Shown here: positions 1 through 58,541 of the stretch, one piece after another | Numbering within the stretch: the first letter of the stretch is position 1 | Layout of the letters: each line of letters starts with the position of its first letter | DNA from: Trypanosoma brucei | Lineage: Eukaryota | NCBI GenBank assembly: GCA_000002445.1 | Contig: CM000208.1 | Coordinates: 3,424,001 to 3,488,000, forward strand | Reading direction: 5' to 3' | DNA length: 64,000 nt | Program-made: the position numbers and the translations under genes | Notes under the pieces: generated by a model | What the model was told of the DNA's origin: nothing | Database searches by the model: none | Seen by the model: only the letters and a program-made list of their open reading frames with translations

Positions 1-2316
1 GGTTAGAGGAGACAAGGAGACAAGGCCATCTGCTATTGCATCCCCATTCTTTTGTTTCTCTTCCTCGGTGAAAAGATACAAGACAATCGGTCCCCGCTTC
101 CCCTCTTGGAGTGGAACAAGGACACGGGCAGGTAATGCGGTGTGGGCAGCAAAGAGTACAGTCAGTACGGAGCTCGGCAGGTGAAAACATGAGTCGTTCG
201 GTCCTTGTTGCTGCGACAGAGCAAGGCGTAATTCTTCCACGCCTGAGTGCAAAAGGAGGAAAACAGGCCGCTGCAATATCAGGAGTTCACCGGATGTGGA
301 ATCAACCGCCTCTTTAGAAGAGTCAACAGCACCACGGGTGAGGGCATGCCATACACGATTCGCCTCTTCCGCACGCCTTTGCTTCCGCCAGCTAAGCGCT
401 GGTGTCGCTCCCTTATGACCAACCCGGACATTTTTACTACCTTCTTTCTGGCCACCTAATCGCACCTCCCTCTTCTTTATGACCGCAAGGGCAATATGAT
501 AACTATGCAAACAACCACCAACACAAGCGAGCTCTTCTGCCCCAATGCTCCCAGTGCCTTCCACCGTGTGTGGAACTCTTGCACTCCCGCTACCGGCACT
601 GTCCCCATTACCCTCCACACACATAGTCGTGCATGCGCCAGCCTCCATAACGACAAGATCCCGTGAAAATTGAAGCCGATTGCTACTAGTCACAGAGGCA
701 TATTGAACAAATAGCTGACGAAGTGACTGAGCTACGAACGGTATTTGAAGCATTCCACCGCACAGCACCACCACGTTAATTAACTCCTCCTTATCCTTAT
801 CGCCCGGTGTTTCTTGTAAGTACTCCCGAAGTACCTTCTCAAACCCGTCAAGCACACCCCACTCACCACGTAAAGATGCGTTAACCCTCGTACGAGAAAA
901 TGTGACATTATCTCGCAGGTCTACGCCCTCTGCAAGCGCCTCAATCTCTACCGGAACCTGAGCTGCCTTGCTGAGTGCAAGTTTCTTTTCTTCCACAGCC
1001 ATCAGCAACCGACGCTGTGCGCGCGCCGGAAAGTCAGCGAACGACTGGTAACCCAACACTCGACGTTGAGTCTGAATAAAGTTCTTCGCAAGACAGTCGC
1101 GTAAGGCCAAATCAACTGCAACACCACCACCGCAGATATTTGACGCTAAATAGTACGTTTTGCCGCGTGTGTTATGACCAGTGGGTGCTGTTTGGCTTGC
1201 ACGAAGAAAGCGTGAACGCATTTCACTAAGCAAACAACCTCCCTCGAGACGGTGTGCTGTCAGTGAAACACCGAGGGCACCCCAATCCACTACAAGTACA
1301 CGCGCTGACGGCCACGCCGGGGCCGGTTTCGTGGATTCCACCACAGTGGGCGGAAGCAGGAAATGGTGGCCAGCCATACGATGAGATTGATGGGGTCGGC
1401 ATGGCAGCGTGTCCATTCCTAGTAGAACCGCTTCATCTGCAAATATCACTGAAATATGAGCCGCGACCGATCCCAAATGGGATCTTCCAACTGCATTCCT
1501 CACCCACTGAAGTGAACTGCAACGCCTGAAGAACGGCGTGTCTTTTCCATCACTGTCTGTGCCGCCTTCTTCTGCAGAATCGCTGTTGGCACCCTTTGGA
1601 GAATCCGTCTCAACGTCCGGTGCCGCTGCTTCAGGGAATAGGTGTCGCGGGACCACAACGGTAAGCACAACTCTCGCTTCTTGATCGTCACTTTGCGTCG
1701 ATTTCTCTTGGTCTGAGTCGGCGGCGGTAGCGACAAGGCCACACGCACCATCGATTGTGTGCCGTTTAATATGATCGAAGAACATCACCATCATTTCATC
1801 CGCCGGTAAGAGAGTTTGCTCCTTCGCTGCGCTGCCATCATCGTCATCATCACCTTCATGTGGTGGCCGAAATCCAAACCGGAGTATATCACTCCCATCT
1901 TCACGTTGGAAGGGACAATGTCCTTTGTAGTGTAATTTAGCAGCAGCCTCAACGTCCCTCTGCAACAGATTCGTAAGCGGTTGATCTAACGGAATGTCAT
2001 CACTGCCGTCGTTGTTTTCATCGTTACGAAAAACTCCTGAACCCCGACGCTGGTACTCGTTGGCAACAGCTGCAAAAGCAAAGAGGTATGGCACAACGAC
2101 CTGCGGTGCCCGTGCGTACAGAGCGCGTGCATCTTCACCAAAAAGAACCTCGTTGTTTTCCGCAAATGCCGCCATCGTGGGGGTTACACGGTGACCAGAG
2201 GAATTTGCGATAACGCGGACGGGCACTGAGCTTTCGATTCCCGTTTGTGTAGCGCTGACAGTTGCTACAGCAACAATAGTGCTCGTGGAACCCAATGAAA
2301 TGCTTACCGCGTGCAT
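1..2316 (-). CDS. Divergent Hsp70-like (actin-fold ATPase) protein, 3' end truncated by the window edge
   Basis: Minus-strand frame opens at the ATG at 2316, with an in-frame TAA 15 nt upstream, and stays open to position 1, so it is absent from the start-to-stop ORF track. N-terminus MHAVSISLGSTSTIVAV...VIANSSGHRVTPTMAAFAENNEVLFGEDARALYA parallels the Hsp70 'IDLGTTYSCVGV...[31 protein letters not shown]' phosphate-1 and connect motifs. Later VVVLCGGMLQIPFVAQSLRQLF parallels 'VLVGGSTRIPKVQ'. No recognisable canonical substrate-binding domain follows. Hand translation only, so the frame was not machine-verified. Confidence 0.45.
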   Translation of the reverse strand, partial: MHAVSISLGSTSTIVAVATVSATQTGIESSVPVRVIANSSGHRVTPTMAAFAENNEVLFGEDARALYARAPQVVVPYLFAFAAVANEYQRRGSGVFRNDENNDGSDDIPLDQPLTNLLQRDVEAAAKLHYKGHCPFQREDGSDILRFGFRPPHEGDDDDDGSAAKEQTLLPADEMMVMFFDHIKRHTIDGACGLVATAADSDQEKSTQSDDQEARVVLTVVVPRHLFPEAAAPDVETDSPKGANSDSAEEGGTDSDGKDTPFFRRCSSLQWVRNAVGRSHLGSVAAHISVIFADEAVLLGMDTLPCRPHQSHRMAGHHFLLPPTVVESTKPAPAWPSARVLVVDWGALGVSLTAHRLEGGCLLSEMRSRFLRASQTAPTGHNTRGKTYYLASNICGGGVAVDLALRDCLAKNFIQTQRRVLGYQSFADFPARAQRRLLMAVEEKKLALSKAAQVPVEIEALAEGVDLRDNVTFSRTRVNASLRGEWGVLDGFEKVLREYLQETPGDKDKEELINVVVLCGGMLQIPFVAQSLRQLFVQYASVTSSNRLQFSRDLVVMEAGACTTMCVEGNGDSAGSGSARVPHTVEGTGSIGAEELACVGGCLHSYHIALAVIKKREVRLGGQKEGSKNVRVGHKGATPALSWRKQRRAEEANRVWHALTRGAVDSSKEAVDSTSGELLILQRPVFLLLHSGVEELRLALSQQQGPNDSCFHLPSSVLTVLFAAHTALPARVLVPLQEGKRGPIVLYLFTEEEKQKNGDAIADGLVSLSPLT

Positions 2317-4077
2317 GGTAAAAGGGATTATTTAAGACGGTGACGAAAAATAATGCCTCCCTCCTTCCCTTGGTGTTTCGCTTACTGTCAAGGGTGAACT
2401 TATGAAAATCCCCAAGCGCCGCCACGTATATATACGTCTTTATCGTCCCCCTTCCTTTTCTTTGTTTTTTTGTTCAGTCCAGCTCTGCCTAGCTCCGTAA
2501 TGTTACAGTCACCACACTTATTTGTTCCCTCTTTCAAAGCAATAAATAAAAGGAAAAGGGTACGTTCACATGGGTGCTCATGTGAAAAGATATATGGCAG
2601 GGCACATGCAATGAACCTTCTTCACGCGTTTACCCTCTCGTCTTCAAAAGAATAAGGGAGAAACCCTTATTCGCGGCAGTTGTGAGTGCAATGGCGAAAA
2701 GTTACACCGAAAATGAACAGCCGATTGTGTAAATTCGGTATAATCGCTTCCGGGTCCAGTAGGGTCTTGAGACCCATAAACAATGCTGCGCAAATGAGGC
2801 AGTCCTGCAAATAATTGAAGTAAGTGCCTAATTTCAAACACGGAACTGCAACAAAAAATTAGAACTACTCACCCATTAAGGGATCGCTTGGTACCATTCC
2901 TTGAAGCATATTCCCTGATAATGCATCGCGTGAACCGCAAGCGCAACACCACTGTTCAGCGGATACTTTGCATTACCAAAAAGTGTGTGATTGCTCCATC
3001 TCTCAGTAATGTAATATACTTACGTCATCAGAGTTGGGAAGCATCTGGATAAGAAGGAGAGCAAGTTCGTTAAAACAAATACTTGAAACAACTTAACAGT
3101 GTCAACAAGGGCAAAGTTTTAAAAATATCCTCGGCCCCCGACATGCTGCTCCGCTCCCTCTTGATCCACACCTTCTTTTTTTCCTCTCAGTTACTTTACT
3201 TCACTCTAAAATTCTAAACCTTCCAAAGACAAGGAGAGAGAGGAAAAAAAAAACTTCCTTTTTCGAGTAGAGGAAATAGAAAAGCGGTAGAAGATTTGAC
3301 GAAAAGAAACAAATAAACGTGGAGTATTTCCCTGTGCATAATAACTGCTAAAATAGCATAGAAGTAGGCGTAGGGAAGGGCGGGACGCGATTGAGAATAA
3401 AATGCGAGACTGACAAAAGTAAAAGACTCAATCCTTAGTTTCCTCCTTGTGAGGTGTGGACCGAAGACTTCTGCAAAAGAGATTTCTGCACACGCACATA
3501 ACAAAAAAAAAGGTGGGAGGGAGTAGTTTGGAAGTCACTAACGGGAAGGAGAGAATGAATGTATAGTGAGCCGTTCACACCAAAAAATAGGTAAATAAAC
3601 CGAAAACCCACAAATCGGAGACCGTCAACAACTAAAAGAAAAAGAAAAGAAAAAGCACATTCGCTCCTTTTCTTTGTGTGTGTATGGAGGGTTAGGGTCT
3701 GCCGTGTTTCAATTTTAAAAAATTCACACGTAGAAAACATACCTTTATTGATGCCAACAGACACATAAAGTCCCTCCCTCCACAACTCCCACGCATCATC
3801 ACTATCATCTATGTTTGAATTCAATCGCCACGAAAGAGGTAAAAAAAAAAACAAATGCGCGCAAGGGTTTGCCATGACAAGGCAAAAAAAAAAAACAGTG
3901 GTTCCCGCCGCTGTGGCGACAACAAGAACGGTGACGACAGAGAAAATATGTGTATACTTTAGCCCCCCCCACACACACACACTTTGGAAATCCAAGTCCA
4001 CTAAGCGCACACAAAAACGAAGGGGTGCGAGTACATTTATAAAAAAAAATAATTACCATTGCCGTCAGAAGAAGGTG

Positions 4078-5745
4078 TTAATGATCTTTCTTGTGCTTTT
4101 TATGACGGCCATGTTTGTGCTCCTTATCCCTCCTCTTTCCCGACTCATCCCTTTTTGACGATGAGCGCTTCCGCTTCTTTCGGTCCGCCCCATCATCATC
4201 ATCATCATCATCGTCGTCGTCGTCATCATCATCATCATCAAACGAGTCCTCCTCGTCGCTGCTTTCATCATCTTCACCATCGCCACTGTCATCGTCATCA
4301 TCGCCATCACTGTCCTCGAGTGCCGCACCAGTTCGCACCACTTCCACCTTGCTTTGCAAGTAAGTTAGCAGCGCCTCCTTCTCCGTGATAGGAAGTGAAG
4401 CAATAGTGACCTTGTCTGCACCACCCCTTGCACGCTTTCCCAAGTTACCGTAAACTGTCATCTGGAACGTTGTACTCCCGCGTTCCGACTCATCAACTTC
4501 AATACGTTGTATATCACCGTACGAAATACGTGTGGCAGGACGGTGAAGGAACAGCAGTGCAGATTGGAGCACATACAAAAGCCCCTCATTGCTTTGATAA
4601 AGGCAGCGCAACACAGAATTGCCGTTACGTGTCTGATAATCTTTGTTGTGGCCGCCAAGCGCCTTCACCCCTGCAATGGTCTTCAACACACGAATAAGTA
4701 ATTCACTCACACGACCCGTTATGGTAGGTGGGAAGGTGTCCCCCTTTGCCGCTTGCTGCTGCGTCGCGTCCTTCGCTGCACTTTGTTTGTGAGGTAGCGA
4801 AGAGAGGACGCGGTCGATTTCCTCTTGTGTCTTCAGCTCACAAGACCACGCATGCTGCTCATCAAGAACAAAACCAACGGGACAGGTGATAACGATGTGG
4901 TTATACGTTGTTGCGCGCACTTTTACGGGATTTCGAAGTATGACCACAACGTATTGTGGGAAATCGGTATCATCTTCCGCGTCTACACTCTTGTTCGAGG
5001 TGTTTCTGCTTGTTGGGATATCGCACAGGTACAGTTGGACAACATCTGTGAGTGGCACCATTGTAACAATGCCCCCATCACCTCCCGCACGCTTCCTTTC
5101 CTCCAACAGTAACGTATAGTTAGTTACTATAAGTTTGAAACGCCCAGATGGGAAGGAGAGAGTAAGATCATCAAAGACCGCTATAACACATTCGTCCTCA
5201 CGGCGGCCACCACCCATTGCCATCAGTGCTTGATCACCGGGTCCAGCACCCATTGCTCCATTCCCTCCTAAAACTCGTCTTTGGTGCTCCCGCAACCGTT
5301 CTTGTGCCTCGGCAAGCACTTCGCGACCCGCTTCCTCCGTCCGCTCGTGACCAACACAAACGTTTGGTATAGCGAAGCGAACAGACGTCAGCTCCAGGGA
5401 AACGTTGGCACCGGGTACGGCGGTCACCGATGCCTGTGGTTGCAACAAAATGGAAAGATCATTTTTTGTTGTAGCTGTCACACTTGATATAGCGGAAACG
5501 GGTATTTGAATGATTGGTTTTTGGGCGGCGTTGGCGGGCGCACCGCTGTTCTGCTGCTGCCTCTTTGGAAGTGAGAGAAGTTTCAGAACGGGTTGGAGAA
5601 CCGTTTTCTTACCTTCATCCTCTTCTTCCTTCAGTTGTTTCACATCGCTTTGCCCTTTATGCTGATCATCTATCCAACTGAGCTGACCCCAGTTTTCCAC
5701 TGGTGGTGCGGCCAAAGCCGCTGCAACTCCTGCCAAGCTCGACAT
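4078..5745 (-). CDS. POB3: FACT complex subunit POB3/SSRP1 homolog, PH-like domains plus an acidic poly-Asp tail and a basic KR/H-rich C-terminus
   Basis: Segment RCLYQSNEGLLYVLQSALLFLHRPATRISYGDIQRIEVDESERGSTTFQMTVYG...ITEKEALLTYLQSKVEV aligns by eye with SSRP1 'ITCSYKASSGLLYPLERGFIYVHKPPVHIRFDEISFVNFAR...FDFEIETKQG.QYTFSSIEREEYGKLFDFVNAKKLNI'. A run of at least 16 consecutive Asp is followed by a lysine/arginine/histidine tail, as is typical of POB3/SSRP1. The ORF-track start at 5790 adds 15 implausible residues. MSSLAG at 5745 is taken as the start. Confidence 0.75.
   Translation of the reverse strand: MSSLAGVAAALAAPPVENWGQLSWIDDQHKGQSDVKQLKEEEDEGKKTVLQPVLKLLSLPKRQQQNSGAPANAAQKPIIQIPVSAISSVTATTKNDLSILLQPQASVTAVPGANVSLELTSVRFAIPNVCVGHERTEEAGREVLAEAQERLREHQRRVLGGNGAMGAGPGDQALMAMGGGRREDECVIAVFDDLTLSFPSGRFKLIVTNYTLLLEERKRAGGDGGIVTMVPLTDVVQLYLCDIPTSRNTSNKSVDAEDDTDFPQYVVVILRNPVKVRATTYNHIVITCPVGFVLDEQHAWSCELKTQEEIDRVLSSLPHKQSAAKDATQQQAAKGDTFPPTITGRVSELLIRVLKTIAGVKALGGHNKDYQTRNGNSVLRCLYQSNEGLLYVLQSALLFLHRPATRISYGDIQRIEVDESERGSTTFQMTVYGNLGKRARGGADKVTIASLPITEKEALLTYLQSKVEVVRTGAALEDSDGDDDDDSGDGEDDESSDEEDSFDDDDDDDDDDDDDDDDGADRKKRKRSSSKRDESGKRRDKEHKHGRHKKHKKDH
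4189..4250. repeat. Coding trinucleotide repeat (CAT/CGT on +, GAT/GAC on the sense strand) encoding the poly-Asp tract of POB3
   Basis: Direct reading: catcatcatcatcatcatcatcgtcgtcgtcgtcatcatcatcatcatca. On the gene strand this is at least 16 consecutive Asp codons. Confidence 0.9.
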
Positions 5746-6904: not shown

Positions 6905-9900
6905 TCAGTGGCTACAACGGAAAAAAGCAACAGTCGCCACAATGACAGCGGTCAGGACGAAAACGAGACGATACATTAAAGCACAGATGTTGTGCTTAAC
7001 CTCAAGCAATTCCTGCGAAGTCGTCATTGTGTTCAACAGCACCCATGAAACATCCTCCACTTCACCCAACGGTATATGCAACAACTCGCGAAACAGGTGG
7101 CGGATGACGGGATCTCTCCCCTTGATCCGCCGCAGCCACTCGTGCATGGGATGTGATAACCATTCTGTATGAAACCACAACGATGGCCAAAAGAACGAAA
7201 ACAGAGATGATCGCAACCAAAAGTGACAGCCAAAATCCTCCGACGTGCATTTCCGAAATGCGGCAGCTGACCATGGGTATGAGGAAGCAGGGACAAAGAG
7301 GTATTGGTCGTAGCGCCTACCCACATATACAAAAAGTTGCAGAAGCCGCCTCCGAATCTTTACCATATCGCGTTCCTCGGCAGACATTCCATCGTCCTGA
7401 CCGTCCGTGTTCTCGTCATTAATCACACCTTCTCGTTCCCACCATGAGTCAGTGCCGCCTCTTCCAGCGCTGGTCCACTTCTGCCTTGCATCTCTCTCAT
7501 GCCACTGATCTTTTTCAGGGTTGTGAGCACTAAAAAACAACTCTAACGCATTCTTCCAGCGCAACTGAACCTCTCGGGATATATACTCCGCATTACGGAG
7601 CCGAGCCCGACCATCGTCCGCTGCATCATCGAGTGGATGGCTTTCCCCAGTTTCTTCCTCGCGACCAAGAGCATCTCCTTTTGAACCATACTTCAAATCT
7701 TCACCGGGATTCTCCACCGACCCACTGCCCCTCTTTTGACAACCGACTGCTTTGATATTGGGAAGGAATGATGAGTGGATTCCCCGGGGAAACGACGCCA
7801 CCGCTTCCGCAGAACAAGCAAGTCCATCCTCTCCTTGAGTTTCCTTCCCTTTGCTGTTGTGTGAAGAATACACCGCCTCCCTGGGTGCCGACTCAACTGA
7901 ACGCGTGTCATGATCCTCTGTACGGTCGGTGTTTCTACGTCCGCTGGCACTATCTAGTGGTGAAGCAATAGGCTTCTCAAGAAAGCACCATTGACCGCGA
8001 AACAATGGCATATCATCCATGGCTTTCAGTGTCTCAGCCTCGAGTCGTTCATGGGTGTGATTGCTGTTTGTAATGTTTGTGTTTGTCCTGTTAAGTTGCC
8101 ACAATACGAGAGTTTGCCAATCCTCCTCGTGCCTGGACCAGTACCTAACCTCCTTGAGAATGTTTCTGAACATCAACCGCGGTGTGCTCGTGTCAACGCC
8201 GCTCAATAACTTGTTCTGCGTCGCGAGCAAAAACTCATTCAGTATTTTAGAAATACTCTTGTTTCCCGCCACAGACTGGGGCACCTCATACCCTTCGTTT
8301 TTTGACCCGTGGTTGGAAGGATCAGGCTGACCCTTCCACCCCTGCGAGTTATATCCATGACCCCACGAAGATAGTGGCTCCATCTCCAGCAATAGGGAGG
8401 CATGGCGACGAAGCGCGATAGTTTTCAAGAGACGGGGCCCTTGTTCTCCCGTTGCCTCCGATCCCACAGTGTCCCCCTGTCCCGCCGATGGTCGGGAAGA
8501 GGAAGAAGGAGATGGTGAGGCACCATTAGAGTCCAGTGAGGATGCGAAGGAAACCCCAGTACTTGCTTGCATTAAATTAAGGTATGCCTCGTACTGCGGC
8601 ATCATTACGACCCCCATGTACTGTAGTAGCACGCCGTCCAATAAGTCGGCGGATGCAACAAGGCTACGTGTGAGTCTGATGCATGTGCGACGTTCCTCCA
8701 ACTCCTCTTCATCAACATATTCAGTTACACTTTGCCCGTTGGGAAGCCGCTCCACATACCGAACGAATTTCCGTTTTTTATGATGGTGTGCTGCATTCCC
8801 GCCACCGCCCAAAATGCCAAAAAACCAGGGGGTCGCACGAGGCACATCGTAAGAATTTTGCTTCACTTTCCCGCCCCCAGTAATAATCCAATGAGCAAAG
8901 GATAAGATCTTTTGCACAAGCGATGCAGCACGGTACAAATCATGCTTCACACGAGCCAATGAAAACCTTCTCGTTTGCTGTTGTCGTTGCTGTTCAGTCT
9001 CCACTGTGCTCGTTTTCCCGTTTCCATTTTCAATGTCCTCTTCCTTTGCGCCTTCATCAACAGCAGCATTCAATTCACTTAAGGTCACACCCCCCATACC
9101 AGTTAGTGGGGATACATCGTTAGGAACCTCCCGTTGCAGGTGCCGCAACCGCAGGGCAGTAAGCTCATGTTGACGGTCAACAAAGCGGCGAGTGAGTTCC
9201 TTAACACCCTCTGCTAGATCACTCAACGTTACGTGCACCGGGGCCTCGGAAGTCTGTGACACGGTCCCTCCGTGTTTCTGCTGCTGCTGCCCTTTGCGCC
9301 ATCGTTGCAAGCTCTCCAGGTCACGAATAACCTTCTCCAATTTTCCCTCGGAAGGAGATTCCCACCGGCCTTCCATACTCGTCACTAATATGAATAGCAC
9401 CGGCACTATCACTAACAAAAAGCCAATAATCACCTGAAGACCTGAATCTGAAATATAGGCGCTATTCAACGGTAGAAGTCGGCGCAGGAAGGACACAGCC
9501 CGACATTTTTGCCTTTTCTCATGCTTAGGTTGTAGTTGCTGATTTTGTTGGCCATAACCCGGAGAATTGTGTTCCCTGTCAGGAGGTCGCGACTTTGTAA
9601 GTAGAAACAGCGGGTTACCAGTAGCGTTGGGGGCGAATAGGTTGCTCCGCCGGTCCTCTTCACCCTCACGAGCGGTATGAGCTCCTTGGCGGCTGCGAGA
9701 CACACCATGTACATAATCACCATCCTCCATGGGAGACCCTGGTGAAGCGGCCGCCGCATCACCGTTGGTTGCACGATCACATTGTACAAATGACGAAGTC
9801 CCGACTTGATGCCCATTGCGGGGGCCAGTCGCATTTGTTTTTGCATTTGACATTAGCGCACTGGTAGTATTTGCGTTTTTGTCGGCTCCTACCGGAGCCG

Positions 9901-10261
9901 AATCATCGTTGGCGTGGTCTGCGGTGCTTGCCGCGTTCCTAAATTTCTGTATTTCCCTCTCGACGACTACGATATCCTCAAAGCCGTAGAAGTACTGCTT
10001 GCCATCAATCTGCGGCTTCTGAGAGGGTTGCTGCTTATTCCGGGAGACTTTTATTTCGAGCATGGTAGTGGGCACCTCCTTGAGGTGCTTCGTCGTAACT
10101 TTGATGTGTTTTACATATTCCCAGGGGAAATCCACGTTTAATTGTTCACTATTGAATGCTAGGTTATGGAAACTAACGATGAGCCGACCATGATAACCCT
10201 GATAAGCGCACGTGAATTCCTCGCGCGATAATTGAGAGGGGCTCATAAGGATAGCCAACAA
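6905..10261 (-). CDS. Hypothetical large membrane protein with an N-terminal GRAM-like domain, one internal and one C-terminal TM helix
   Basis: A 1118-aa ORF on the polycistron strand. N-terminus EEFTCAYQGYHGRLIVSFHNLAFNSEQLNVDFPWEYVKHIKVTTK fits the GRAM consensus (F.c.Y...GRLY.S...L.F.S....iP...I..I.K). Hydrophobic helix GLQVIIGFLLVIVPVLFILVTSM sits near aa 260. A second helix LVFVLTAVIVATVAFF lies at the extreme C-terminus. The long middle is low-complexity or coiled coil. Confidence 0.55.
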   Translation of the reverse strand: MLAILMSPSQLSREEFTCAYQGYHGRLIVSFHNLAFNSEQLNVDFPWEYVKHIKVTTKHLKEVPTTMLEIKVSRNKQQPSQKPQIDGKQYFYGFEDIVVVEREIQKFRNAASTADHANDDSAPVGADKNANTTSALMSNAKTNATGPRNGHQVGTSSFVQCDRATNGDAAAASPGSPMEDGDYVHGVSRSRQGAHTAREGEEDRRSNLFAPNATGNPLFLLTKSRPPDREHNSPGYGQQNQQLQPKHEKRQKCRAVSFLRRLLPLNSAYISDSGLQVIIGFLLVIVPVLFILVTSMEGRWESPSEGKLEKVIRDLESLQRWRKGQQQQKHGGTVSQTSEAPVHVTLSDLAEGVKELTRRFVDRQHELTALRLRHLQREVPNDVSPLTGMGGVTLSELNAAVDEGAKEEDIENGNGKTSTVETEQQRQQQTRRFSLARVKHDLYRAASLVQKILSFAHWIITGGGKVKQNSYDVPRATPWFFGILGGGGNAAHHHKKRKFVRYVERLPNGQSVTEYVDEEELEERRTCIRLTRSLVASADLLDGVLLQYMGVVMMPQYEAYLNLMQASTGVSFASSLDSNGASPSPSSSSRPSAGQGDTVGSEATGEQGPRLLKTIALRRHASLLLEMEPLSSWGHGYNSQGWKGQPDPSNHGSKNEGYEVPQSVAGNKSISKILNEFLLATQNKLLSGVDTSTPRLMFRNILKEVRYWSRHEEDWQTLVLWQLNRTNTNITNSNHTHERLEAETLKAMDDMPLFRGQWCFLEKPIASPLDSASGRRNTDRTEDHDTRSVESAPREAVYSSHNSKGKETQGEDGLACSAEAVASFPRGIHSSFLPNIKAVGCQKRGSGSVENPGEDLKYGSKGDALGREEETGESHPLDDAADDGRARLRNAEYISREVQLRWKNALELFFSAHNPEKDQWHERDARQKWTSAGRGGTDSWWEREGVINDENTDGQDDGMSAEERDMVKIRRRLLQLFVYVGRRYDQYLFVPASSYPWSAAAFRKCTSEDFGCHFWLRSSLFSFFWPSLWFHTEWLSHPMHEWLRRIKGRDPVIRHLFRELLHIPLGEVEDVSWVLLNTMTTSQELLEVKHNICALMYRLVFVLTAVIVATVAFFRCSH

Positions 10262-15828: not shown

Positions 15829-15852
15829 CAAAGAGAGAGAGAGAGAGAGAGA
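15829..15852. repeat. (GA)n microsatellite, intergenic
   Basis: Direct reading: agagagagagagagagagagagaag. Confidence 0.9.

Positions 15853-16014: not shown

Positions 16015-16016
<2 letters not shown>

Positions 16017-30686: not shown

Positions 30687-30688
<2 letters not shown>

Positions 30689-30716
<28 letters not shown>
30689..30716. repeat. (GT)n microsatellite, about 14 units, at or overlapping the 5' end of the 29499..30686 gene
   Basis: Direct reading: tgtgtgtgtgtgtgtgtgtgtgtgtgtg immediately upstream (sense orientation) of the MSTEPH Met. It creates the artefactual MRAHTHTHTH N-terminus in the ORF track. Confidence 0.95.
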
Positions 30717-30719
<3 letters not shown>

Positions 30720-31274
30720 CCGCATGACAATTCATACGTCGTTCAAGGAAAGAAAATGCAAAAAAGAGAGAAAAAGAGGGTGGATGGAATAGTTAGCAAG
30801 ATACAGAGGCTAACAACCGTCGATGGTATGAAACCCCGTCATGAAAGCTACCACAAATCATCTGTACACCTACCTTTCATCACCGCTATTTAAATTTGAA
30901 TTGCTGCTTCTTTTTGCTTCTCTTTTTTGTTTTGCATTCTCTCGTTGGAAATCATGTACAGTTCCATAATATTACATACGTGAGGTAAGTGCCGACGTTT
31001 AATGTGCTGGCCAATCCACACTGTGTTAACCATACATGAAAGCATCCCATCACATGCACAAAATTAGTAGGAACATCTAAAACAGTAGGAAGACTGTCGG
31101 CAGGAATGTTGTTGCTTCCACCTTTTAAGGAGGAAAAAAAAAAGACAAAATCCGGCTCAAAACAAAAAAAAAGAAAAAAAAACTTCCACCGTATGTGAAG
31201 CGAAGTTGCAGCAATCCGCCTCACCTTTACTTCACTCACTTAGGTACTTAACGTAACGTAGCAACACAGACCCG

Positions 31275-50025: not shown

Positions 50026-51039
50026 CTAATTAGTTGTGGTTGGTTGATTCTTCAGGAGTGTTGCTTTCCATAGGTCACGGTTGTCCGTGTTGCCCAACGC
50101 AGCTGAGGTGCCAATGCCGTCGTCAACCACGGCATTCAGGCCACGGCACCAAACCACACCAGCGCCTTCAGGACGGGGACCATACGTATTCAAAGTTCCG
50201 ATAGTCTTCATCCCTTCAATCGGGGGTGTTGCAACGCCTTCGCGAGAAACTGGAGGAGTGCCTGCTCCACACTGCCGATGCAGAACAGCGCCTAGCGCCG
50301 CCGCGTTATCCCGATTGGCGGGGTCGCGAGCAACCGTACGAACTTTTTCAATGACGTGCTGCAGGCGGTGCGAATCTTCGCAATGTGGAGGGGGTGTGAC
50401 GGAACAGCGGTGGGCAGCATCGTACGCTTCACGGACCGTACCCGGCATCACAATGGTGCCCTGCGGTGGTGTAGCACTCTTCACACGCACCTGTTCTTCC
50501 GGTGCATCGAATGGTATCGGGCGTGGCCCCTTTCCAGTTCTCTTCAAAGTTTCGAAGTTCTCTGCATCTGCAGCTGCCTTTACGCGGGATTTGTGCTCAA
50601 GTACGAGAAGGCGCTCGAGACGGTCGAGGTCATCCATCGCATCCTTTTCTTGTTCCTCACGAGTTTTTGCCATGCCATTACTGCCGTTTAGCAGACACTG
50701 TTGTGCGGCTCTTACACCAGGGGGAATCGTGTATTCGCCACCGTGTTGTAAACCGTTGCGGCCCATTTTTGCATTGAGCTCCGTTTGATTCGGGTGGTGC
50801 TCAGGGTCATCCAATTCAAAGGAAGGCTCCTGCGGCTTCCGGTCATAATTACGCTGTGACAGAGAATCGTGGCATTGGCAACAGCAGTTGTGCAGCGCCT
50901 GCTGCTCCCTCAAGTGACTCACAGTTGTCATGAGGGCACTCTTTTTCGCATTTAGATTACGGCGGCTATTGCAGAAGTCACACTGGCAGTGTTGGTGAGA
51001 CTGGTACTGCACCGATACGTGTGGCAACTTGACAGACAT
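50026..51039 (-). CDS. Hypothetical protein (337 aa)
   Basis: ORF on the polycistron strand with a charged helical segment (EEQEKDAMDDLDRLERLLVLEHKSRVKAAADAENFETLKR). A 235-aa ORF overlaps on the + strand (50081..50788) but is S/R/C/P-rich and antisense-like, so the minus ORF is preferred. Confidence 0.4.
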   Translation of the reverse strand: MSVKLPHVSVQYQSHQHCQCDFCNSRRNLNAKKSALMTTVSHLREQQALHNCCCQCHDSLSQRNYDRKPQEPSFELDDPEHHPNQTELNAKMGRNGLQHGGEYTIPPGVRAAQQCLLNGSNGMAKTREEQEKDAMDDLDRLERLLVLEHKSRVKAAADAENFETLKRTGKGPRPIPFDAPEEQVRVKSATPPQGTIVMPGTVREAYDAAHRCSVTPPPHCEDSHRLQHVIEKVRTVARDPANRDNAAALGAVLHRQCGAGTPPVSREGVATPPIEGMKTIGTLNTYGPRPEGAGVVWCRGLNAVVDDGIGTSAALGNTDNRDLWKATLLKNQPTTTN

Positions 51040-51768: not shown

Positions 51769-54333
51769 TTAGTCCTCCCCCTTGTCACGGCTCTCCCTAC
51801 AAACTCTGCGCCGAGGTGAAGCAGCTGAAGAGGACTCCGAACTCACCCCTGCAGATGCTCCGCTCACACTTGTGGCTTGCGTCGGATCACGAAACTGTGC
51901 TCCACCCCCGCCTCCTCTTACGGCTTCAGTTGGTGCGTATGCATTTTGTAGTGCCTGCGCTTGCTGAAGCAGAGCCTTTACAGACACTACTAACCACACA
52001 GGGCATTTCTCCTCCAGCACCTCCAACTGCGACTTGAGGAAGGTCTTAAAGAACAACACTGCAATGACAATTATTGCTATGAGCAGAATGGGCGAGGTGA
52101 GGAGATAGTACAACTCATTCCACCCCAACAGCAGCATCACCGGCAATACCCATGGTGGTAAACTTTGTTTCCCACTCTCAATATTACGGAGCTGCATCTG
52201 CAGTGTGAAGTCAGCTTTTTGTTTGTACAGATGGAAGGCGCACTGCAGAGCATTGTGGCTTAGAAGAACGTTGTCTGCATTAACGGTATCAGCGGTCGTA
52301 TCGCCAGAATCCACCACTGACGTGGGAGCATCCAATGGATAACGTGGGACATCTGATATATTGGTGAAGTGAAGAAAAAAATTCTTCTCTGTTCGATTAT
52401 CACGTACTTGGAACCTGCAGCGATCACGAACTAGACGCTGTAACGCACGGGTAGTTCCTTCCCCCTCGACTTCTCCAGCATCTACTTCAACAGGGACAAG
52501 CTTTAGGCGGTAGTACAGCAGGCAGCCCAACAGCACAAGTCCTGCTTGGCGGGCTTGCTTCTCCGCACCGAGGAGACCATCAGTGGTTCGGAAAAAACGC
52601 ACAGTCCCATCCGTCTTGCTAGTGAGAGCTTGTTCGAACACCTGGTGAACCGTTTCCGCCGCATTTTCCGCCATCGCCACAAAGCGATTGCGTAGCTTGT
52701 GTTGGGCTCCCTCCATTGCCGCATGGGCCACACCCTCGCGTACTGCCTGGTCATCCATGATAGCTGTGGCAAACTTTCCATAAAGGGATGACAGTGCGGC
52801 CTGATGGGATTTAGAACACCCATTCAGCATATCAAACGCCCCCTGCAAAGATAAACAAATCCTTTTCCAAAACTCCTCCACGAACAGCCGGCACCTCTTA
52901 TTGTCGACGAGGCCCTCGGCAGTGTCCAGAACGCCTTGTGCGAGTCCACCCCCATCTATTCTATCCCCTTTGTTATCCTTGCCTTCCAAAAGCAAGACAG
53001 ACCGGGCCTCATTTTGAAGCCAACGTACGGCCTCGTCCACACTACTTCCGATTACCCCATCCAACGCTGCAAGAACTGTCACAGCGATACTTTTTGCGTA
53101 CTGCTTGAGCAAATGAAGTTCCATGTCGCCCAGTTCCTCCTCGAGCGCTTCTGCCGTTTCGTGCACAACACTGACCTTATAAAGCTTAGTTTGGTCGGAG
53201 AAGTTTTTCAGTAGCCTCTCTATAGTCTCTTCCAAAGCACGCGTAAACTGAGGAATCACGTCACCGCGTTGTATCTTTTTCGTATATTCCTCGCAAACTT
53301 CTTTGAATTCTTCGATAGCAGCATGCTTCGCATCCGCGCACCGATGCCTTGCGAGCATATCACGCTGCGTAGGAATGTCAAGGTCCTTACTCGAGCAGAT
53401 AGCGTTCCAGCAGTTTGAGAGATATGATGGCATTCCATCGGCTGGGACACCGCGAAACATGCTGCAGTTACTGAAGAGAAAGTTCGAGTTTTTAGGTGAT
53501 ACAAACCACTCGCGGAACTCAGAGACTGCACTGTCAAACTCGGGGCGTTGAAGTTTGTAATGCGGGAGGACCCGATAGCGCAAGTCGAACACCACATCGA
53601 TGGTCGCATCCGTAAATGACTCCGGCTTCTGAATGTTGCCCCATATTTTATCGAAAGACTTCCGAACTGTTTCAAAAGATGGGGCAGGGTCATTCTCCGT
53701 GAAATCACGTAAAACAACCAAAAGCGTGGGTTTTTCCTCCTTCACATAACTACCGTGGGAAAATAGTTGTAAATTCACTTCGAATACCGTGCGAAGAAGG
53801 TTCATATTAGCGGCATTGAAACGACCAACATCGACAGCCCACATGTTAATTATTAGAATATCGGCAACACTGAGCGCAAAGAGGGAAAGTTGGCGCTCGA
53901 AGTTCTGATCTTCGCCTCGTTCAATACCATCGGTGCCTTCGAAGTCCAAAACAAACAGGGGTTGAGGTTTCTCTCTTTTCAATAAGTCTGCTCCTTCACC
54001 TTCCTCTCTTTCCTTCCGGTGAGTTTGTGCATCCAGAATGGCACGAGTCATAAAGGCCCCTTTTGTTGTCTGTCCGCGGTGATGTGCCTCATCCATTGTC
54101 ATAAACTCAGTTTGGAAAAGCGAATTAAGTAGCGTTGACTTACCGCTGCTCTGCCCGCCAAACACACCAACCACATGATAATTGACGCCCGTGCGGTACA
54201 AAATGTCACTGGAACCCTTTCCGGCGAGAGCTGAAATGAGAAAGTCGTTAATGTCAGCTTCTGGAAGTAGCTCACCGTCATCGTTGATGAGATGAATCCC
54301 CTTGACAGCCGTCTCCCCGCTGAAAGCAGCCAT
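51769..54333 (-). CDS. SEY1: Sey1/RHD3 (root hair defective 3) dynamin-like ER-fusion GTPase, atlastin functional analogue
   Basis: N-terminal GTPase domain [28 protein letters not shown]...[10 protein letters not shown] parallels RHD3/Sey1 '[28 protein letters not shown]...SQTTKGIW'. Long helical middle. Two adjacent C-terminal hydrophobic segments ([36 protein letters not shown]) form the typical Sey1 hairpin TM. Confidence 0.85.
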   Translation of the reverse strand: [854 protein letters not shown]

Positions 54334-55243: not shown

Positions 55244-56644
55244 TTACAAATGGTGAGCGCTTGTGCTGCGTGTCGTTTCCCATTTCTTCGCCTTCTCTGC
55301 CAGTGGTGCACTTGGGCTGCGTGTCGTAGGTGGCACCGGACGCAAGTAGCCATCTTCCTCTAAGCGATTAATGACCTGAGAACGCCTATCTGAGTGAGCA
55401 TGATCTGTTATAAAGATTTTCCTGCCATGTTTTACGCTACTACTACGAGCCACAGGTGAGTTTGCGACGCTTTTCTTAAACTCATTTGTGGGACGGGGAG
55501 TTTTCGCCGCCGGGGGTTCCTCTTTTTCGCTTTTCGCAACGACGGCCGAGGGCGCCGTCCCAGGGTCCTTCGCAGGTACATTATTATTACAGCGGCACGG
55601 CGCAAAACACTTACAAGGCCGGCAACGGCAGACAGCATGGCAACAGCATTGCAACACTACTTGAGGGTGCTGGTTGGGTTCTGACCCTTTTTTAATAAAG
55701 GAAGTCGACCGGCTTACCTGAGCTGGCCGTGCATCCGTAGCCTTGGACTTCTTCGGCGGTTGTGTGTTCTCAGGAACGTTGTCCTCATTATTAGTTACAC
55801 GGGGTGCTGCCGCGCGCCTTTCCTTGTGCGCGGCTACACATTTCCCTTCCGCACGCGGAGCCACATGCGCTACTGTATTTCTCGCCAGAGAATGTTGCCT
55901 CATTTGACCAGTCCCACAGTGTGGTACAGGAGTATAGTAATAAGCCGGCGTTTCCTTTCGGGGGCGCGCCACAACCCGGGAAGTGCGTCTGTCTTCCACG
56001 GGGCCCACTAGTTGCCGATAACCGCGACCTCCCAGCTCCCGCCGTCGTTCTTCAACTTCGCGCCGAAGCTCTTGTCTCCGTCGCTGTTGCTCAGCCATAG
56101 CAGCTTGTTGGTGTATTGTCCCGCGAGCGTGGCGCATAAGGTGTGTCATATTGGATTTGTAATGCCCCCGTGATTCGCCGTGAGTACCCACCACCTTCCC
56201 ACCGAGTGCTTGAAGAAGGTTTTCCCGATCCGCCCGCACTGCGAGATATCGCTGCCTCTTCTCATGATGTTCATACTCCCTCAGCTGCTCCCTTTCAGGC
56301 ACGCAAAACGCACAGAGCCGCGACCCGTGAGCCACTGGGAGAACACCAACCCCTCCTCCAGAGTATGGCCGCCCCTGGTGGTGTTGGTATGGCACATTAT
56401 CACGCGAGCATCCAAAACAACAGTGGCAGCAACTGTGATCGGAAGCTGTCGCAGGGCAAACGTCGTGAGCCACTTCACAGCAACAAGGAACACGGTAGAG
56501 TGGGCCATTGTGACAAGGTGGAATCACATTACCGGCCACTCGAGTGGCAGCTCCAGCAATATAACCGGCGGGGCAGCCCGTCTGGCACGGCCTATCCTGG
56601 CTAGTTTGTGCGGCGTGGTCACGACAAATAGTGTCCGCGCTCAT
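55244..56644 (-). CDS. Hypothetical Cys-rich protein (two Cys clusters: CCCEVAHDVC...CCHCCFGC and QCCCHAVCRCRPCKCFAPCRC)
   Basis: ORF on the polycistron strand. The ORF-track start at 56746 runs through an (AT)n tract (YIYIYT). The start is placed at MSADTICRDH (56644). GC-rich region with competing + strand ORFs. No family recognised. Confidence 0.4.
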   Translation of the reverse strand: MSADTICRDHAAQTSQDRPCQTGCPAGYIAGAATRVAGNVIPPCHNGPLYRVPCCCEVAHDVCPATASDHSCCHCCFGCSRDNVPYQHHQGRPYSGGGVGVLPVAHGSRLCAFCVPEREQLREYEHHEKRQRYLAVRADRENLLQALGGKVVGTHGESRGHYKSNMTHLMRHARGTIHQQAAMAEQQRRRQELRREVEERRRELGGRGYRQLVGPVEDRRTSRVVARPRKETPAYYYTPVPHCGTGQMRQHSLARNTVAHVAPRAEGKCVAAHKERRAAAPRVTNNEDNVPENTQPPKKSKATDARPAQVSRSTSFIKKGSEPNQHPQVVLQCCCHAVCRCRPCKCFAPCRCNNNVPAKDPGTAPSAVVAKSEKEEPPAAKTPRPTNEFKKSVANSPVARSSSVKHGRKIFITDHAHSDRRSQVINRLEEDGYLRPVPPTTRSPSAPLAEKAKKWETTRSTSAHHL

Positions 56645-57395: not shown

Positions 57396-58541
57396 TTACT
57401 TCCCTTCTGAAGTTCCACCGTTATTCTTATTTTTCGCAGCACCTTCTTTTCTACTTTCCTCCGTGGCGGCCTCCTTCGCCTTGTGCTGTTCGTTTCCTAA
57501 CTTTTCCTTTAGTGACCGCTCCCGCCGCGCTCTCACTTCCTGTATTTCGCGAGCTATGCGCCGTCGGTTAGCAATAACGTCGTAGAGAGTGCAGACACAT
57601 CGCCCAATGGCGGCGATGAACATTGCAATCGCCTGATCATTTGCATGCCGCACCATGTCAGTTGATGTCTTCAAGTGATAAATGTGCGGCTGCAGGCTGA
57701 TAACTTCCTGCAAGACACTCAAAACATCCTCTGAGATGGGCATGGTACCCTCTGCAACGTCATTAAGATACTCCTCAATTGACTGCAGAACACGACCGAG
57801 GTGGTCAAGTGAAAGCTCACGCTCCTGGACCTGGGCGGAAAGTGTTGTGATGGTGGAATCGGTAAGGTCCCGCAAGAGATGTTCAATACCGATTTCCTCC
57901 GCCTCTTCCGCGCCGAGATGTGTGGGGATGTTGCGAAACTCCAACGATCGCGCCCCGTCTCGGCCATGCACCGTCGTATAAGCCAGCACGGGCACACCTT
58001 TGTTGTTAGGATCTGTATTCACAATGCAGTACACCGGATTCAGCGAGAAGCGATCTGCAATAAGGAGGTGCAAGAGCATGTCATTCGGCTGCACCGCGCA
58101 CGAGGGACCTGCAGAATACCACCCAACAATCCGCACCTTGGGGTGTACGCGACGAAACATTAGGAACATTTCCTCTGCATAGTTTGTATCGAGAAACCAG
58201 ACATCAGGATTCTGAGGGTCCTCATCAAACGGAACAGCGAAACTGTTGTTGATGTCAAGCACTTGTATTCCACCAGGGTGGCTGAGGTGACGGCCGAGAA
58301 GAAGCCCAGCGACACGCCGCTTTTGTGACACTTTTGCGTTAACACGGGCGTAGTGGTCGACAAGTGAGAGCAAAACAAGTGGGTGAACCTCTACTCGTGC
58401 CCCCGCAGGAGTAAATACCGGAACATCTTTTCCACCATCACGTTCCGCGTCGCCGTCGTCCCCATTGACGGATGTGTCCTGTTGGTCCACTTCAGGATTG
58501 AGTACCGCAGGTTGCGGTTCCTTGGGGTCATCATTGGCCAT
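57396..58541 (-). CDS. RPN8: 26S proteasome regulatory lid subunit RPN8 (PSMD7), MPN-domain protein
   Basis: [19 protein letters not shown]...RVAGLLLG...[48 protein letters not shown] parallels PSMD7 '[19 protein letters not shown]...RVVGVLLG...[48 protein letters not shown]'. [28 protein letters not shown] parallels '[28 protein letters not shown]'. There is no JAMM His-x-His metal motif, which fits Rpn8 rather than Rpn11. Lys-rich tail. Confidence 0.8.
   Translation of the reverse strand: [381 protein letters not shown]

What the first reader, a model, noticed from the sequence alone, without database searches (positions are those of the whole stretch)
1..58541. Entire window is one co-directional kinetoplastid polycistron, not a prokaryotic island
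All 16 credible long ORFs (up to 1696 aa) lie on the minus strand with no introns and 1.5-3 kb AT-rich spacers full of (CA)n, (GT)n, (AT)n and (GA)n microsatellites. Every competing + strand ORF is short and S/R/C/P- or H-biased, which is typical of antisense reading. Purine-rich + strand tracts (polyY on the sense strand) precede each start, as needed for spliced-leader trans-splicing. Gene content (IFT140, B9, NEK, Sey1, POB3, RPN8) is eukaryotic. Coding GC of about 50% with very AT-rich spacers points to an African-trypanosome-like genome rather than Leishmania. This reframes the hunt: there is no CRISPR, toxin-antitoxin, restriction-modification or phage-defence system to find here.
Basis: partly seen in the sequence, partly recalled or inferred. 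Interest (0 to 1): 0.5.

Follow-up and report, generated by a model that had tools for sequence, protein, structure and literature searches.

The report
Known Trypanosoma brucei chromosome 10 polycistron

Summary
All 16 long ORFs (286-1696 aa) lie on the minus strand. Fourteen are residue-for-residue identical to the consecutive T. brucei brucei TREU927 proteins EAN78808-EAN78821. Published processing-site coordinates place the window at Tb927_10_v4 3,424,001-3,488,000. Kolev et al. 2010 list one minus-strand RNA polymerase II transcription unit, Tb10.61.1810 to Tb10.61.2745 (at least 190 kb), which contains the whole window and has no internal start site in it. Mapped poly(A) sites and one mapped spliced-leader site fit the polyY/AG trans-splicing model.

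Several details are overstated. Spacers are 0.55-3.0 kb (median about 1 kb), not 1.5-3 kb. Spacer GC is 42% against 52% coding. Microsatellites are sparse. The S/R/C/P/H bias of the plus-strand ORFs is weak.

This is not a boundary. It is part of an ~11 kb, ~32% GC spacer that published poly(A) mapping assigns to a 3'UTR of up to 10.5 kb on the upstream DEAD/H helicase Tb927.10.14550. A long gap after this helicase also exists in T. cruzi and T. melophagium.

No RNA-family, tRNA or real defence-system hits were found. Already known; low interest.

The parts
1..2316 (-). 5' part (772 codons) of an HSP70-like gene that runs off the left end of the window. Probably Tb10.61.2400 (1160 aa).
   Evidence: ORF open at the window edge. 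Pfam HSP70 5.1e-14. The Tb10.61.2400 primary poly(A) site plus UTR length puts its stop at window -1166, which is in frame with the ATG at 2316 (the assignment is inferred).
2632..3219 (-). Novel transcript Tb10.NT.157 (587 nt), lying in the spacer downstream of Pob3.
   Evidence: Kolev 2010 Table S7 coordinates 3,427,219-3,426,632, minus strand, converted with offset 3,424,000.
4078..5745 (-). Pob3 (FACT subunit), Tb927.10.14390. It has a C-terminal poly-Asp tract encoded by the (CAT)16 repeat at 4191-4240.
   Evidence: Pfam Rtt106-like middle domain 7.6e-10 and SSrecog. Gene ID from PMC4625058. Translation. TRF. The exact 555-aa sequence is not on record, so the annotated start may differ.
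6905..10246 (-). Conserved hypothetical / transmembrane protein, 1113 aa, EAN78808.
   Evidence: Exact match to the TREU927 protein. No Pfam hit.
10851..14726 (-). Leucine-rich repeat protein, 1291 aa, EAN78809.
   Evidence: Exact match. Pfam LRR_4 and LRR_6.
16570..21090 (-). NEK-related Ser/Thr protein kinase, 1506 aa, EAN78810.
   Evidence: Exact match. Pkinase 5.4e-72.
24085..26847 (-). Conserved hypothetical / transmembrane protein, 920 aa, EAN78811.
   Evidence: Exact match.
27736..28596 (-). B9 domain-containing protein 1 (ciliary transition zone), 286 aa, EAN78812.
   Evidence: Exact match. Pfam B9-C2 6.8e-35.
29499..30725 (-). Tb10.61.2280 / EAN78813, annotated as 408 aa. The true start is probably Met14 (ATG at 30686-30684), giving 395 aa.
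   Evidence: Exact match. Kolev Table S1 places the 5'-most SL site at 3,454,687 = window 30,687, inside the annotated ORF. AG, (CA)14 and a 45-nt polyY tract lie just upstream. The 395-aa version is identical to T. equiperdum SCU66545.1.
31275..34313 (-). Leucine-rich repeat protein, 1012 aa, EAN78814.
   Evidence: Exact match. Pfam LRR_4 and LRR_8.
35299..40389 (-). IFT140, 1696 aa, Tb927.10.14470, EAN78815.
   Evidence: Exact match. Pfam IFT140 domains, best 3.9e-117. Gene ID from PMC8141408.
40792..41441 (-). Novel transcript Tb10.NT.158 (649 nt), lying in the spacer upstream of IFT140.
   Evidence: Kolev 2010 Table S7 coordinates 3,465,441-3,464,792, minus strand.
42634..45231 (-). Conserved hypothetical protein, 865 aa, EAN78816.
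   Evidence: Exact match.
47157..48419 (-). Tb10.61.2220, conserved hypothetical protein, 420 aa, EAN78817. Primary poly(A) site at window 45,521 (3'UTR 1636 nt).
   Evidence: Exact match. Kolev Table S13.
50026..51039 (-). Tb10.61.2210, conserved hypothetical protein, 337 aa, EAN78818. Primary poly(A) site at window 48,654 (3'UTR 1372 nt).
   Evidence: Exact match. Kolev Table S13.
51769..54333 (-). Sey1/RHD3 homologue, 854 aa, Tb10.61.2200, EAN78819. Primary poly(A) site at window 51,274.
   Evidence: Exact match. Pfam RHD3_GTPase 7.3e-73. Kolev Table S13.
55244..56644 (-). Conserved hypothetical protein, 466 aa, EAN78820.
   Evidence: Exact match.
57396..58541 (-). [quoted passage not shown] Primary poly(A) site at window 57,200.
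   Evidence: Exact match. Pfam JAB and MitMem_reg. Gene ID from the PMC8559703 supplement. Kolev Table S13.
58960..64000 (-). Distal part of the very long 3'UTR of the upstream DEAD/H RNA helicase Tb927.10.14550 / Tb10.61.2130. Its stop codon lies at window-equivalent position 69,511, outside the window. Primary poly(A) site at 61,697 and 3'-most poly(A) site at 58,960. GC about 0.32, low complexity, non-coding.
   Evidence: Composition. Sequence. Kolev Tables S1 and S13. The upstream helicase is on the same strand in T. b. gambiense. The spacer is gap-free in T. b. equiperdum. No satellite array. No Rfam or tRNA hit.
58542..58959 (-). RPN8 upstream processing region. A 113-nt polypyrimidine tract on the sense strand starts 45 nt downstream of the helicase's last poly(A) site and is followed by AG dinucleotides. 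This is the presumed SL acceptor region for RPN8.
   Evidence: The RPN8 SL site itself was not available in the stored part of the supplement, so this is inferred.

Best explanation
The window is Trypanosoma brucei brucei TREU927 chromosome 10, v4 coordinates 3,424,001-3,488,000. It is an internal third of one RNA polymerase II polycistronic transcription unit.

Mechanism. Transcription starts at the divergent strand-switch region near 3.545 Mb, upstream of Tb10.61.1810. It runs leftwards, along the window's minus strand, for at least 190 kb to Tb10.61.2745. The precursor RNA carries functionally unrelated, intron-less genes: an HSP70-like gene, Pob3, two LRR proteins, a NEK kinase, B9D1, IFT140, Sey1, RPN8 and hypothetical proteins. 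It is cut into mRNAs by spliced-leader trans-splicing at an AG downstream of a polypyrimidine tract. This step is coupled to polyadenylation of the gene immediately upstream.

The AT-rich last 5.5 kb of the window is not a boundary. It is part of the ~11 kb spacer that serves as the heterogeneous, up to 10.5 kb 3'UTR of the upstream DEAD/H helicase Tb927.10.14550.

Shown here: organism identity, gene content, single-strand arrangement, position relative to the published unit and processing sites, and the polyY/AG anatomy at the mapped sites. Inferred from established kinetoplastid biology: Pol II as the polymerase, the coupling mechanism, and the SL sites of the 15 genes whose mapped sites were not in the stored supplement.
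For: Identity. 14 proteins are identical to the consecutive entries EAN78808-EAN78821 on the 4,054,025-bp TREU927 record.

Coordinates. Primary poly(A) site plus UTR length for Tb10.61.2220, 2210, 2200 and 2180, and the ORF coordinates of Tb10.61.2280, reproduce window stops 47157, 50026, 51769, 57396 and 29499 exactly with a single offset of 3,424,000.

Transcription unit. Kolev Table S14 lists 'Tb10.61.1810 -> Tb10.61.2745, minus, Divergent' with no internal start in between. Its ten non-divergent starts on chromosome 10 equal the ten head-to-tail boundaries counted independently by Cliffe et al. 2010.

Transcripts. Two extra transcripts in the spacers, Tb10.NT.157 and Tb10.NT.158, are also on the minus strand.

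Processing signals. The mapped SL site of Tb10.61.2280 at 30,687 is directly preceded by AG, with a 45-nt polyY tract upstream. In 5 of 6 intervals the strongest polyY tract starts 45-76 nt after the upstream gene's mapped poly(A) site, and polyY exceeds polyR in 6 of 6.

Tail. The helicase transcript's 3'-most poly(A) site is at window 58,960, 419 nt from the RPN8 ATG.

Synteny. The same order and the same strand are found in six other kinetoplastid assemblies.

Gene IDs. Pob3 = Tb927.10.14390, IFT140 = Tb927.10.14470, RPN8 = Tb927.10.14530 and the helicase = Tb927.10.14550.
Against: Only one coordinate-level transcription-start map (Kolev 2010, procyclic forms) could be read. Chromatin-based maps (H4K10ac, H2A.Z) were not available as coordinates, so a weak internal start site cannot be excluded.

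Mapped SL sites were available for only one gene in the window. In the plain 600-nt upstream windows, polyY is no stronger than polyR.

For the 865-aa gene, the best polyY tract lies 7 nt from the annotated ATG with no AG after it. This may mean that its start codon or its acceptor site is not where it was assumed to be.

DNA-level identity to the TREU927 record was not checked directly, because that chromosome was not retrievable. Identity rests on proteins and coordinates.
Confidence: 0.93

Rival explanations
1. The window spans two head-to-tail transcription units, with termination and re-initiation inside the 11-kb AT-rich helicase-RPN8 spacer or another long spacer. The genes would be co-directional without belonging to a single polycistron.
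For: Chromosome 10 has ten head-to-tail boundaries, and ORF orientation cannot reveal them. The spacer is unusually long and compositionally distinct. The helicase poly(A) sites are very dispersed (dispersion 2564 nt), and the primary site lies 3.1 kb before RPN8.
Against: Kolev Table S14 lists no internal start between Tb10.61.1810 and Tb10.61.2745. The helicase transcript was mapped to within 419 nt of the RPN8 ATG. There is no tRNA or snRNA gene, which often mark such boundaries.
Confidence: 0.06
2. The AT-rich tail (58,542-64,000) is a strand-switch region, a centromere or another chromosomal landmark that ends the gene array at RPN8.
For: GC falls to 0.28-0.36. The T. equiperdum contig ends inside the region and the T. 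b. gambiense assembly has a gap there, as would be expected for sequence that is hard to assemble.
Against: The next gene upstream, the DEAD helicase, and the TPR gene beyond it are on the same strand. The gap-free T. b. equiperdum sequence shows only low-complexity tracts and no satellite array. Poly(A) sites of the helicase mRNA map within the region.
Confidence: 0.01
3. The window is prokaryotic, or carries a prokaryote-type operon or defence island.
For: PADLOC reports strong hits (mad6 1.2e-87, many PD-T4-6 models) for the ORF at 16570-21090.
Against: Those hits cover only the generic Ser/Thr kinase domain (residues 2-252) of a 1506-aa NEK-related kinase that is identical to a T. brucei protein. 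All other proteins give no hit or a marginal one. The gene content is ciliary, proteasomal and chromatin-related, hence eukaryotic. No CRISPR-like array was found.
Confidence: 0

Closest known systems
Kinetoplastid RNA polymerase II polycistronic transcription unit; specifically the T. brucei TREU927 chromosome 10 unit Tb10.61.1810 -> Tb10.61.2745 (Kolev et al. 2010, PMC2936537, Table S14)
   Same: It is this unit. The proteins are identical, the coordinates match with a single offset, all genes and extra transcripts are on one strand, and the mapped poly(A) and SL sites show the expected polyY/AG anatomy.
   Different: Nothing differs in kind. The window covers only about one third of the unit (64 kb of at least 190 kb) and contains neither its start nor its end.
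Syntenic polycistrons in T. cruzi, T. melophagium and Leishmania orientalis
   Same: The order RPN8 -> 466-aa orthologue -> Sey1 -> 337-aa orthologue is conserved on one strand. In the two Trypanosoma species the DEAD helicase lies upstream, followed by a ~7 kb low-GC gap.
   Different: T. cruzi and T. melophagium carry a 206-247 aa gene family flanking RPN8, and T. melophagium has a second RPN8 copy. Both are absent from T. brucei. The helicase was not found within 10 kb upstream in Leishmania. The spacers share no sequence similarity.
Very long regulatory 3'UTRs of T. brucei mRNAs (for example RBP10, about 7.3 kb; recalled from my own knowledge, not checked here)
   Same: The helicase Tb927.10.14550 has a multi-kilobase, AT-rich 3'UTR with several poly(A) sites.
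   Different: No regulatory role has been shown for this UTR. At up to 10.5 kb it is longer, and its poly(A) sites are unusually dispersed.
Bacterial operon / defence island
   Same: Only the superficial feature of many same-strand ORFs.
   Different: Kilobase-scale spacers, eukaryotic gene content, mRNA maturation by trans-splicing, and no defence, CRISPR, toxin-antitoxin or restriction-modification signatures.

Membership tests
Kinetoplastid Pol II polycistronic transcription unit | Many functionally unrelated protein-coding genes arranged head-to-tail on one strand | tested here: met
   16 of 16 long ORFs and 2 extra mapped transcripts lie on the minus strand. The plus-strand ORFs are chance-sized and none of the six tested is on record as a protein.
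Kinetoplastid Pol II polycistronic transcription unit | The organism is a kinetoplastid | tested here: met
   14 proteins are identical to T. brucei brucei TREU927 entries. The nearest RPN8 relatives are all kinetoplastid.
Kinetoplastid Pol II polycistronic transcription unit | Genes lack spliceosomal cis-introns | tested here: met
   Each uninterrupted ORF reproduces the full annotated protein exactly.
Kinetoplastid Pol II polycistronic transcription unit | mRNA 5' ends are made by spliced-leader trans-splicing at an AG downstream of a polypyrimidine tract | tested here: met
   For the one gene with a retrievable mapped site (Tb10.61.2280, window 30,687), AG immediately precedes the site and a 45-nt polyY tract lies upstream. 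For the other 15 genes this is inferred from the presence of polyY tracts.
Kinetoplastid Pol II polycistronic transcription unit | Polyadenylation of each gene occurs a short distance upstream of the next gene's polyY / SL acceptor region | tested here: met
   Six mapped poly(A) sites lie 129-556 nt before the next ATG. In 5 of 6 the strongest polyY tract begins 45-76 nt downstream of the poly(A) site.
Kinetoplastid Pol II polycistronic transcription unit | A single transcription start region upstream, with none inside the array | tested here: met
   Kolev 2010 Table S14 gives the unit as Tb10.61.1810 -> Tb10.61.2745, with no internal start between those genes. This rests on one published map. 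The number of boundaries on chromosome 10 agrees with Cliffe 2010.
Kinetoplastid Pol II polycistronic transcription unit | Chromatin marks at the boundaries only (H4K10ac, H2A.Z, H2B.V at starts; H3.V, H4.V, base J at ends) | not testable with these tools
   No ChIP-seq coordinate data were available. The supplement of PMC8559703 held no start-region coordinates for this region.
Prokaryotic defence island / operon | Proteins belong to bacterial defence, toxin-antitoxin, restriction-modification or CRISPR families, or a CRISPR array is present | tested here: not met
   PADLOC gives only generic kinase-domain hits to the NEK kinase and marginal hits with E about 1e-3. There is no repeat array with CRISPR-like period and no Rfam hit.
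Strand-switch region / centromere (considered for 58,542-64,000) | Flanking genes change strand, or an AT-rich satellite array is present | tested here: not met
   The flanking genes are co-directional. Only low-complexity tracts are present, with no satellite array, in the gap-free T. b. equiperdum copy.

The most novel reading that the evidence does not exclude
The ~11 kb, ~32% GC spacer downstream of the DEAD/H helicase Tb927.10.14550 may be a selectively maintained regulatory module. Its last 5.5 kb are window 58,542-64,000. It could act as a giant 3'UTR controlling helicase expression, or it could hide an unannotated non-coding RNA or a weak internal start site. A gap of 7 kb or more with low GC follows the orthologous helicase in T. 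cruzi and T. melophagium as well, even though the sequences share no similarity.
Probability: 0.2. Interest if true: 0.3.

Novelty: already known. Interest (0 to 1): 0.07.

Why it matters
The result matters mainly for triage. It settles that this window is eukaryotic and belongs to a reference genome published in 2005. Searches for prokaryotic defence systems here are therefore pointless, and strong defence-database hits such as mad6 and PD-T4-6 on the NEK kinase are domain-level false positives.

It adds no new biology about polycistronic transcription. Two small by-products are a probable mis-annotated start codon in Tb10.61.2280, and the observation that an exceptionally long spacer/3'UTR after the helicase Tb927.10.14550 is conserved in length across Trypanosoma.

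Tried and rejected
(1) RNA genes. Rfam at gathering thresholds and ARAGORN over the whole window found nothing. No RNA gene explains the long spacers.

(2) The tail as a strand-switch region or centromere. Rejected. The upstream genes are co-directional, and no satellite array is present in the gap-free T. b. equiperdum copy.

(3) A generic 600-nt upstream test for strand-specific polyY. PolyY was not stronger than polyR (p = 0.38). I replaced this with a test anchored on mapped poly(A) sites.

(4) The S/R/C/P/H bias of plus-strand ORFs. It is weak and not a useful discriminator. D/E depletion and ORF length against shuffles work better.

(5) Retrieving the TREU927 chromosome itself. The contig index returned only sister-taxon records. 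Identity therefore rests on exact protein matches and coordinate anchoring.

(6) A second, chromatin-based start-site map. The supplement of Staneva et al. 2021 held gene IDs but no start-region coordinates for this region. The main text of Kim 2021 gave no coordinates.

(7) Sequence conservation of the helicase spacer between T. brucei and T. cruzi, T. melophagium or Leishmania. Only short low-complexity matches were found.

(8) Small minus-strand ORFs at 3435-3875, 15209-15676 and 45221-45673. They have no Pfam hit where tested and are not on record as proteins. I treated them as non-genes.

(9) PADLOC scan. The strong NEK kinase hits were rejected as generic kinase-domain homology.

Full report
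**Observation**

A mechanical ORF scan shows 16 long ORFs (286-1696 aa) on the minus strand. One of them runs off the left edge of the window. No plus-strand ORF exceeds 224 aa from an ATG. Shuffled sequence of the same composition gives maximum ORFs of 158 aa on average and up to 233 aa. The plus-strand ORFs are therefore what chance produces, and none of the six longest is on record as a protein. The minus-strand ORFs cover 66% of 1..58,541 at 52.0% GC. The 15 spacers average 41.8% GC.

It also finds two LRR proteins and an HSP70-like protein.

**Corrections to the observation**

- Spacers are 549-2994 nt with a median of 985 nt. Only 6 of 15 reach 1.5 kb, so '1.5-3 kb' is too high.
- The spacers are moderately rather than very AT-rich.
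- Dinucleotide microsatellites of at least 6 units number nine in six spacers, about 0.8% of spacer bases. A tenth, (TG)14 at 30,689-30,716, lies inside an annotated ORF.
- Polypyrimidine tracts on the sense strand precede all 16 starts. In arbitrary 600-nt upstream windows, polypurine tracts are equally strong (p = 0.38).
- The amino-acid bias of the plus-strand ORFs is mostly D/E/G/A depletion with excess F and C. It is not an S/R/P/H bias.

**Identity**

Fourteen of the ORFs are identical, residue for residue, to the consecutive GenBank entries EAN78808-EAN78821 of Trypanosoma brucei brucei TREU927, on a record of 4,054,025 bp. The literature gives Pob3 = Tb927.10.14390 (PMC4625058), IFT140 = Tb927.10.14470 (PMC8141408), RPN8 = Tb927.10.14530 and the DEAD/H helicase = Tb927.10.14550 (PMC8559703 supplement; PMC4652759). 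This numbering agrees with the accession order.

Homologues of RPN8 are kinetoplastid down to about 60% identity, followed by metazoan PSMD7 at about 40%. None of the listed hits is named as bacterial.

**Placement on the chromosome**

The supplementary tables of Kolev et al. 2010 (PMC2936537) give poly(A) sites and UTR lengths in v4 coordinates. Primary poly(A) site plus UTR length for Tb10.61.2220, 2210, 2200 and 2180, and the ORF coordinates of Tb10.61.2280, reproduce the window's stop positions 47157, 50026, 51769, 57396 and 29499 exactly with one offset of 3,424,000. The window is therefore Tb927_10_v4 3,424,001-3,488,000.

**One polycistron?**

ORF orientation alone cannot answer this question, because chromosome 10 has ten head-to-tail boundaries between same-strand units (Cliffe et al. 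2010, PMC2896530).

Kolev Table S14 is based on 5'-triphosphate RNA ends. It lists a minus-strand unit whose first gene is Tb10.61.1810, at a divergent strand-switch near 3.544 Mb, and whose last gene is Tb10.61.2745, with a poly(A) site at 3,353,747. No internal start is listed between them. All window genes (Tb10.61.2400 to 2180) fall inside it. The table's seven 'internal' starts plus three 'next to tRNA/snRNA' starts on chromosome 10 equal Cliffe's ten head-to-tail sites. This is a consistency check on counts, not on positions.

Two additional transcripts mapped in the window's spacers are also on the minus strand: Tb10.NT.157 at 2,632-3,219 and Tb10.NT.158 at 40,792-41,441. The window is thus about one third of a unit of at least 190 kb, and it contains neither end of that unit.

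**Processing signals at mapped sites**

The 5'-most spliced-leader site of Tb10.61.2280 maps to window 30,687, inside the annotated ORF (Table S1). On the sense strand that site is directly preceded by AG, by a (CA)14 run, and by a 45-nt polypyrimidine tract.

Six mapped poly(A) sites lie 129-556 nt upstream of the next gene's ATG. In five of the six intervals the strongest polypyrimidine tract begins 45-76 nt after the poly(A) site. In all six, polyY exceeds polyR. This is the anatomy expected for coupled polyadenylation and trans-splicing, which is established kinetoplastid biology cited from my own knowledge. The exception is the 865-aa gene, whose best tract abuts the annotated ATG with no AG following it.

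GC falls to 0.28-0.36. The sequence is low-complexity, with alternating homopurine and homopyrimidine runs, and has no credible ORF, Rfam hit or tRNA.

It is not a strand switch. In T. b. gambiense the next genes upstream, a 616-aa DEAD-box helicase and a TPR protein, are on the same strand.

The spacer is difficult to assemble. The gambiense assembly has a 100-N gap that hides about 5.1 kb of it, and the T. equiperdum contig ends within it. The gap-free T. b. equiperdum chromosome shows 10 kb or more at GC 0.27-0.39 with no satellite array.

Kolev's tables place the helicase (Tb10.61.2130) stop codon at window-equivalent 69,511. That makes the spacer 10,969 nt long. They give a primary poly(A) site at window 61,697 (3'UTR 7,814 nt), a mean 3'UTR of 5,961 nt with a dispersion of 2,564 nt, and a 3'-most site at window 58,960 (3'UTR 10,551 nt), which is 419 nt before the RPN8 ATG. 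The tail is therefore helicase 3'UTR, transcribed in the same direction as everything else.

**Comparative context**

The order RPN8 -> 466-aa orthologue -> Sey1 -> 337-aa orthologue is conserved on one strand in T. cruzi, T. melophagium and Leishmania orientalis.

In T. cruzi and T. melophagium the helicase is likewise upstream, followed by a gap of 7.3 kb (GC 0.40) and 7.0 kb (GC 0.33) respectively. These gaps share no sequence similarity with the T. brucei spacer.

Within Trypanozoon the tail is the most divergent and indel-rich segment, at 93.7-96.3% identity. Coding sequence is 99.1-99.6% identical and the other spacers 96.9-98.8%.

**Negative claim**

PADLOC gives no credible defence-system hit. 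The strong matches to mad6 and PD-T4-6 cover only the generic kinase domain of the NEK kinase. No CRISPR-like array is present.

**Verdict**

Some numbers are overstated, and one omission needs correcting: the polycistron continues through the last 5.5 kb of the window. The object is an annotated, experimentally characterised region of a reference genome. It is already known and of low interest.

The only mildly open point is whether the exceptionally long helicase 3'UTR/spacer, whose length is conserved across Trypanosoma, has a function.

Noticed in passing
window 58,542-64,000 (continues about 5.5 kb beyond the window end); L002:1-10000; L007:1681-8978; L009:1809-8841: The spacer between the DEAD/H helicase Tb927.10.14550 and RPN8 is about 11 kb at about 32% GC. 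Published poly(A) mapping assigns it to the helicase as a 3'UTR of 6-10.5 kb, among the longest in the part of the table that I read. A gap of 7 kb or more with low GC follows the orthologous helicase in T. cruzi and T. melophagium, without sequence similarity. Its function is unknown.
   Followed up: partly
window 30,684-30,725: The annotated start of Tb10.61.2280 / EAN78813 translates a (CA)14 microsatellite as 'MRAHTHTHTHTHR'. It lies upstream of the mapped spliced-leader site at 30,687. The likely true start is Met14, giving 395 aa, which is identical to T. equiperdum SCU66545.1. The 408, 404 and 395 aa lengths annotated in different strains fit microsatellite length variation.
   Followed up: yes
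window 16,570-21,090: The NEK-related kinase gives very strong PADLOC hits (mad6 1.2e-87 and more than 20 PD-T4-6 models). These arise purely from its eukaryotic-type Ser/Thr kinase domain. It is a ready-made false positive for automated defence-system screens run on unlabelled eukaryotic DNA.
   Followed up: yes
L003:9312-9411; L001 start: The T. b. gambiense DAL972 chromosome 10 assembly has a 100-N gap that hides about 5.1 kb of the AT-rich spacer. The T. equiperdum OVI contig CZPT02000568.1 ends 3.3 kb upstream of RPN8, inside the same region. The low-complexity spacer therefore breaks short-read and older assemblies.
   Followed up: yes
window 4,191-4,240 and 2,317-4,077: Pob3 carries a (GAT)16-encoded poly-Asp run in its acidic C-terminal tail. 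Its 1.76-kb downstream spacer contains the separately called transcript Tb10.NT.157. A 2024 paper reports that DRBD18 depletion shifts Pob3 polyadenylation to a proximal site, so Tb10.NT.157 might be part of a long Pob3 3'UTR isoform. The 555-aa ATG-to-stop sequence is not on record, so the annotated start may differ.
   Followed up: partly
window 45,232-45,521: For the 865-aa gene (EAN78816), the strongest polypyrimidine tract ends 7 nt before the annotated ATG and no AG follows it. Either the spliced-leader acceptor uses a weaker upstream tract, or the real start codon lies further downstream.
   Followed up: no
L007:8979-9599 and 11455-12198; L009:8842-9471, 11424-11909, 13426-14585, 14848-15588: T. 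cruzi and T. melophagium have a small gene family (161-247 aa, about 50% identity between copies) flanking RPN8. T. melophagium also has a tandem second RPN8 copy. Neither has any counterpart in the T. brucei window by tblastn.
   Followed up: partly
It has three dinucleotide microsatellites and a strong C-over-G skew on the plus strand. No poly(A) or SL mapping data for the flanking genes were in the stored part of the supplement, so I did not determine what occupies it (a long 3'UTR of the 920-aa gene or something else).
   Followed up: no
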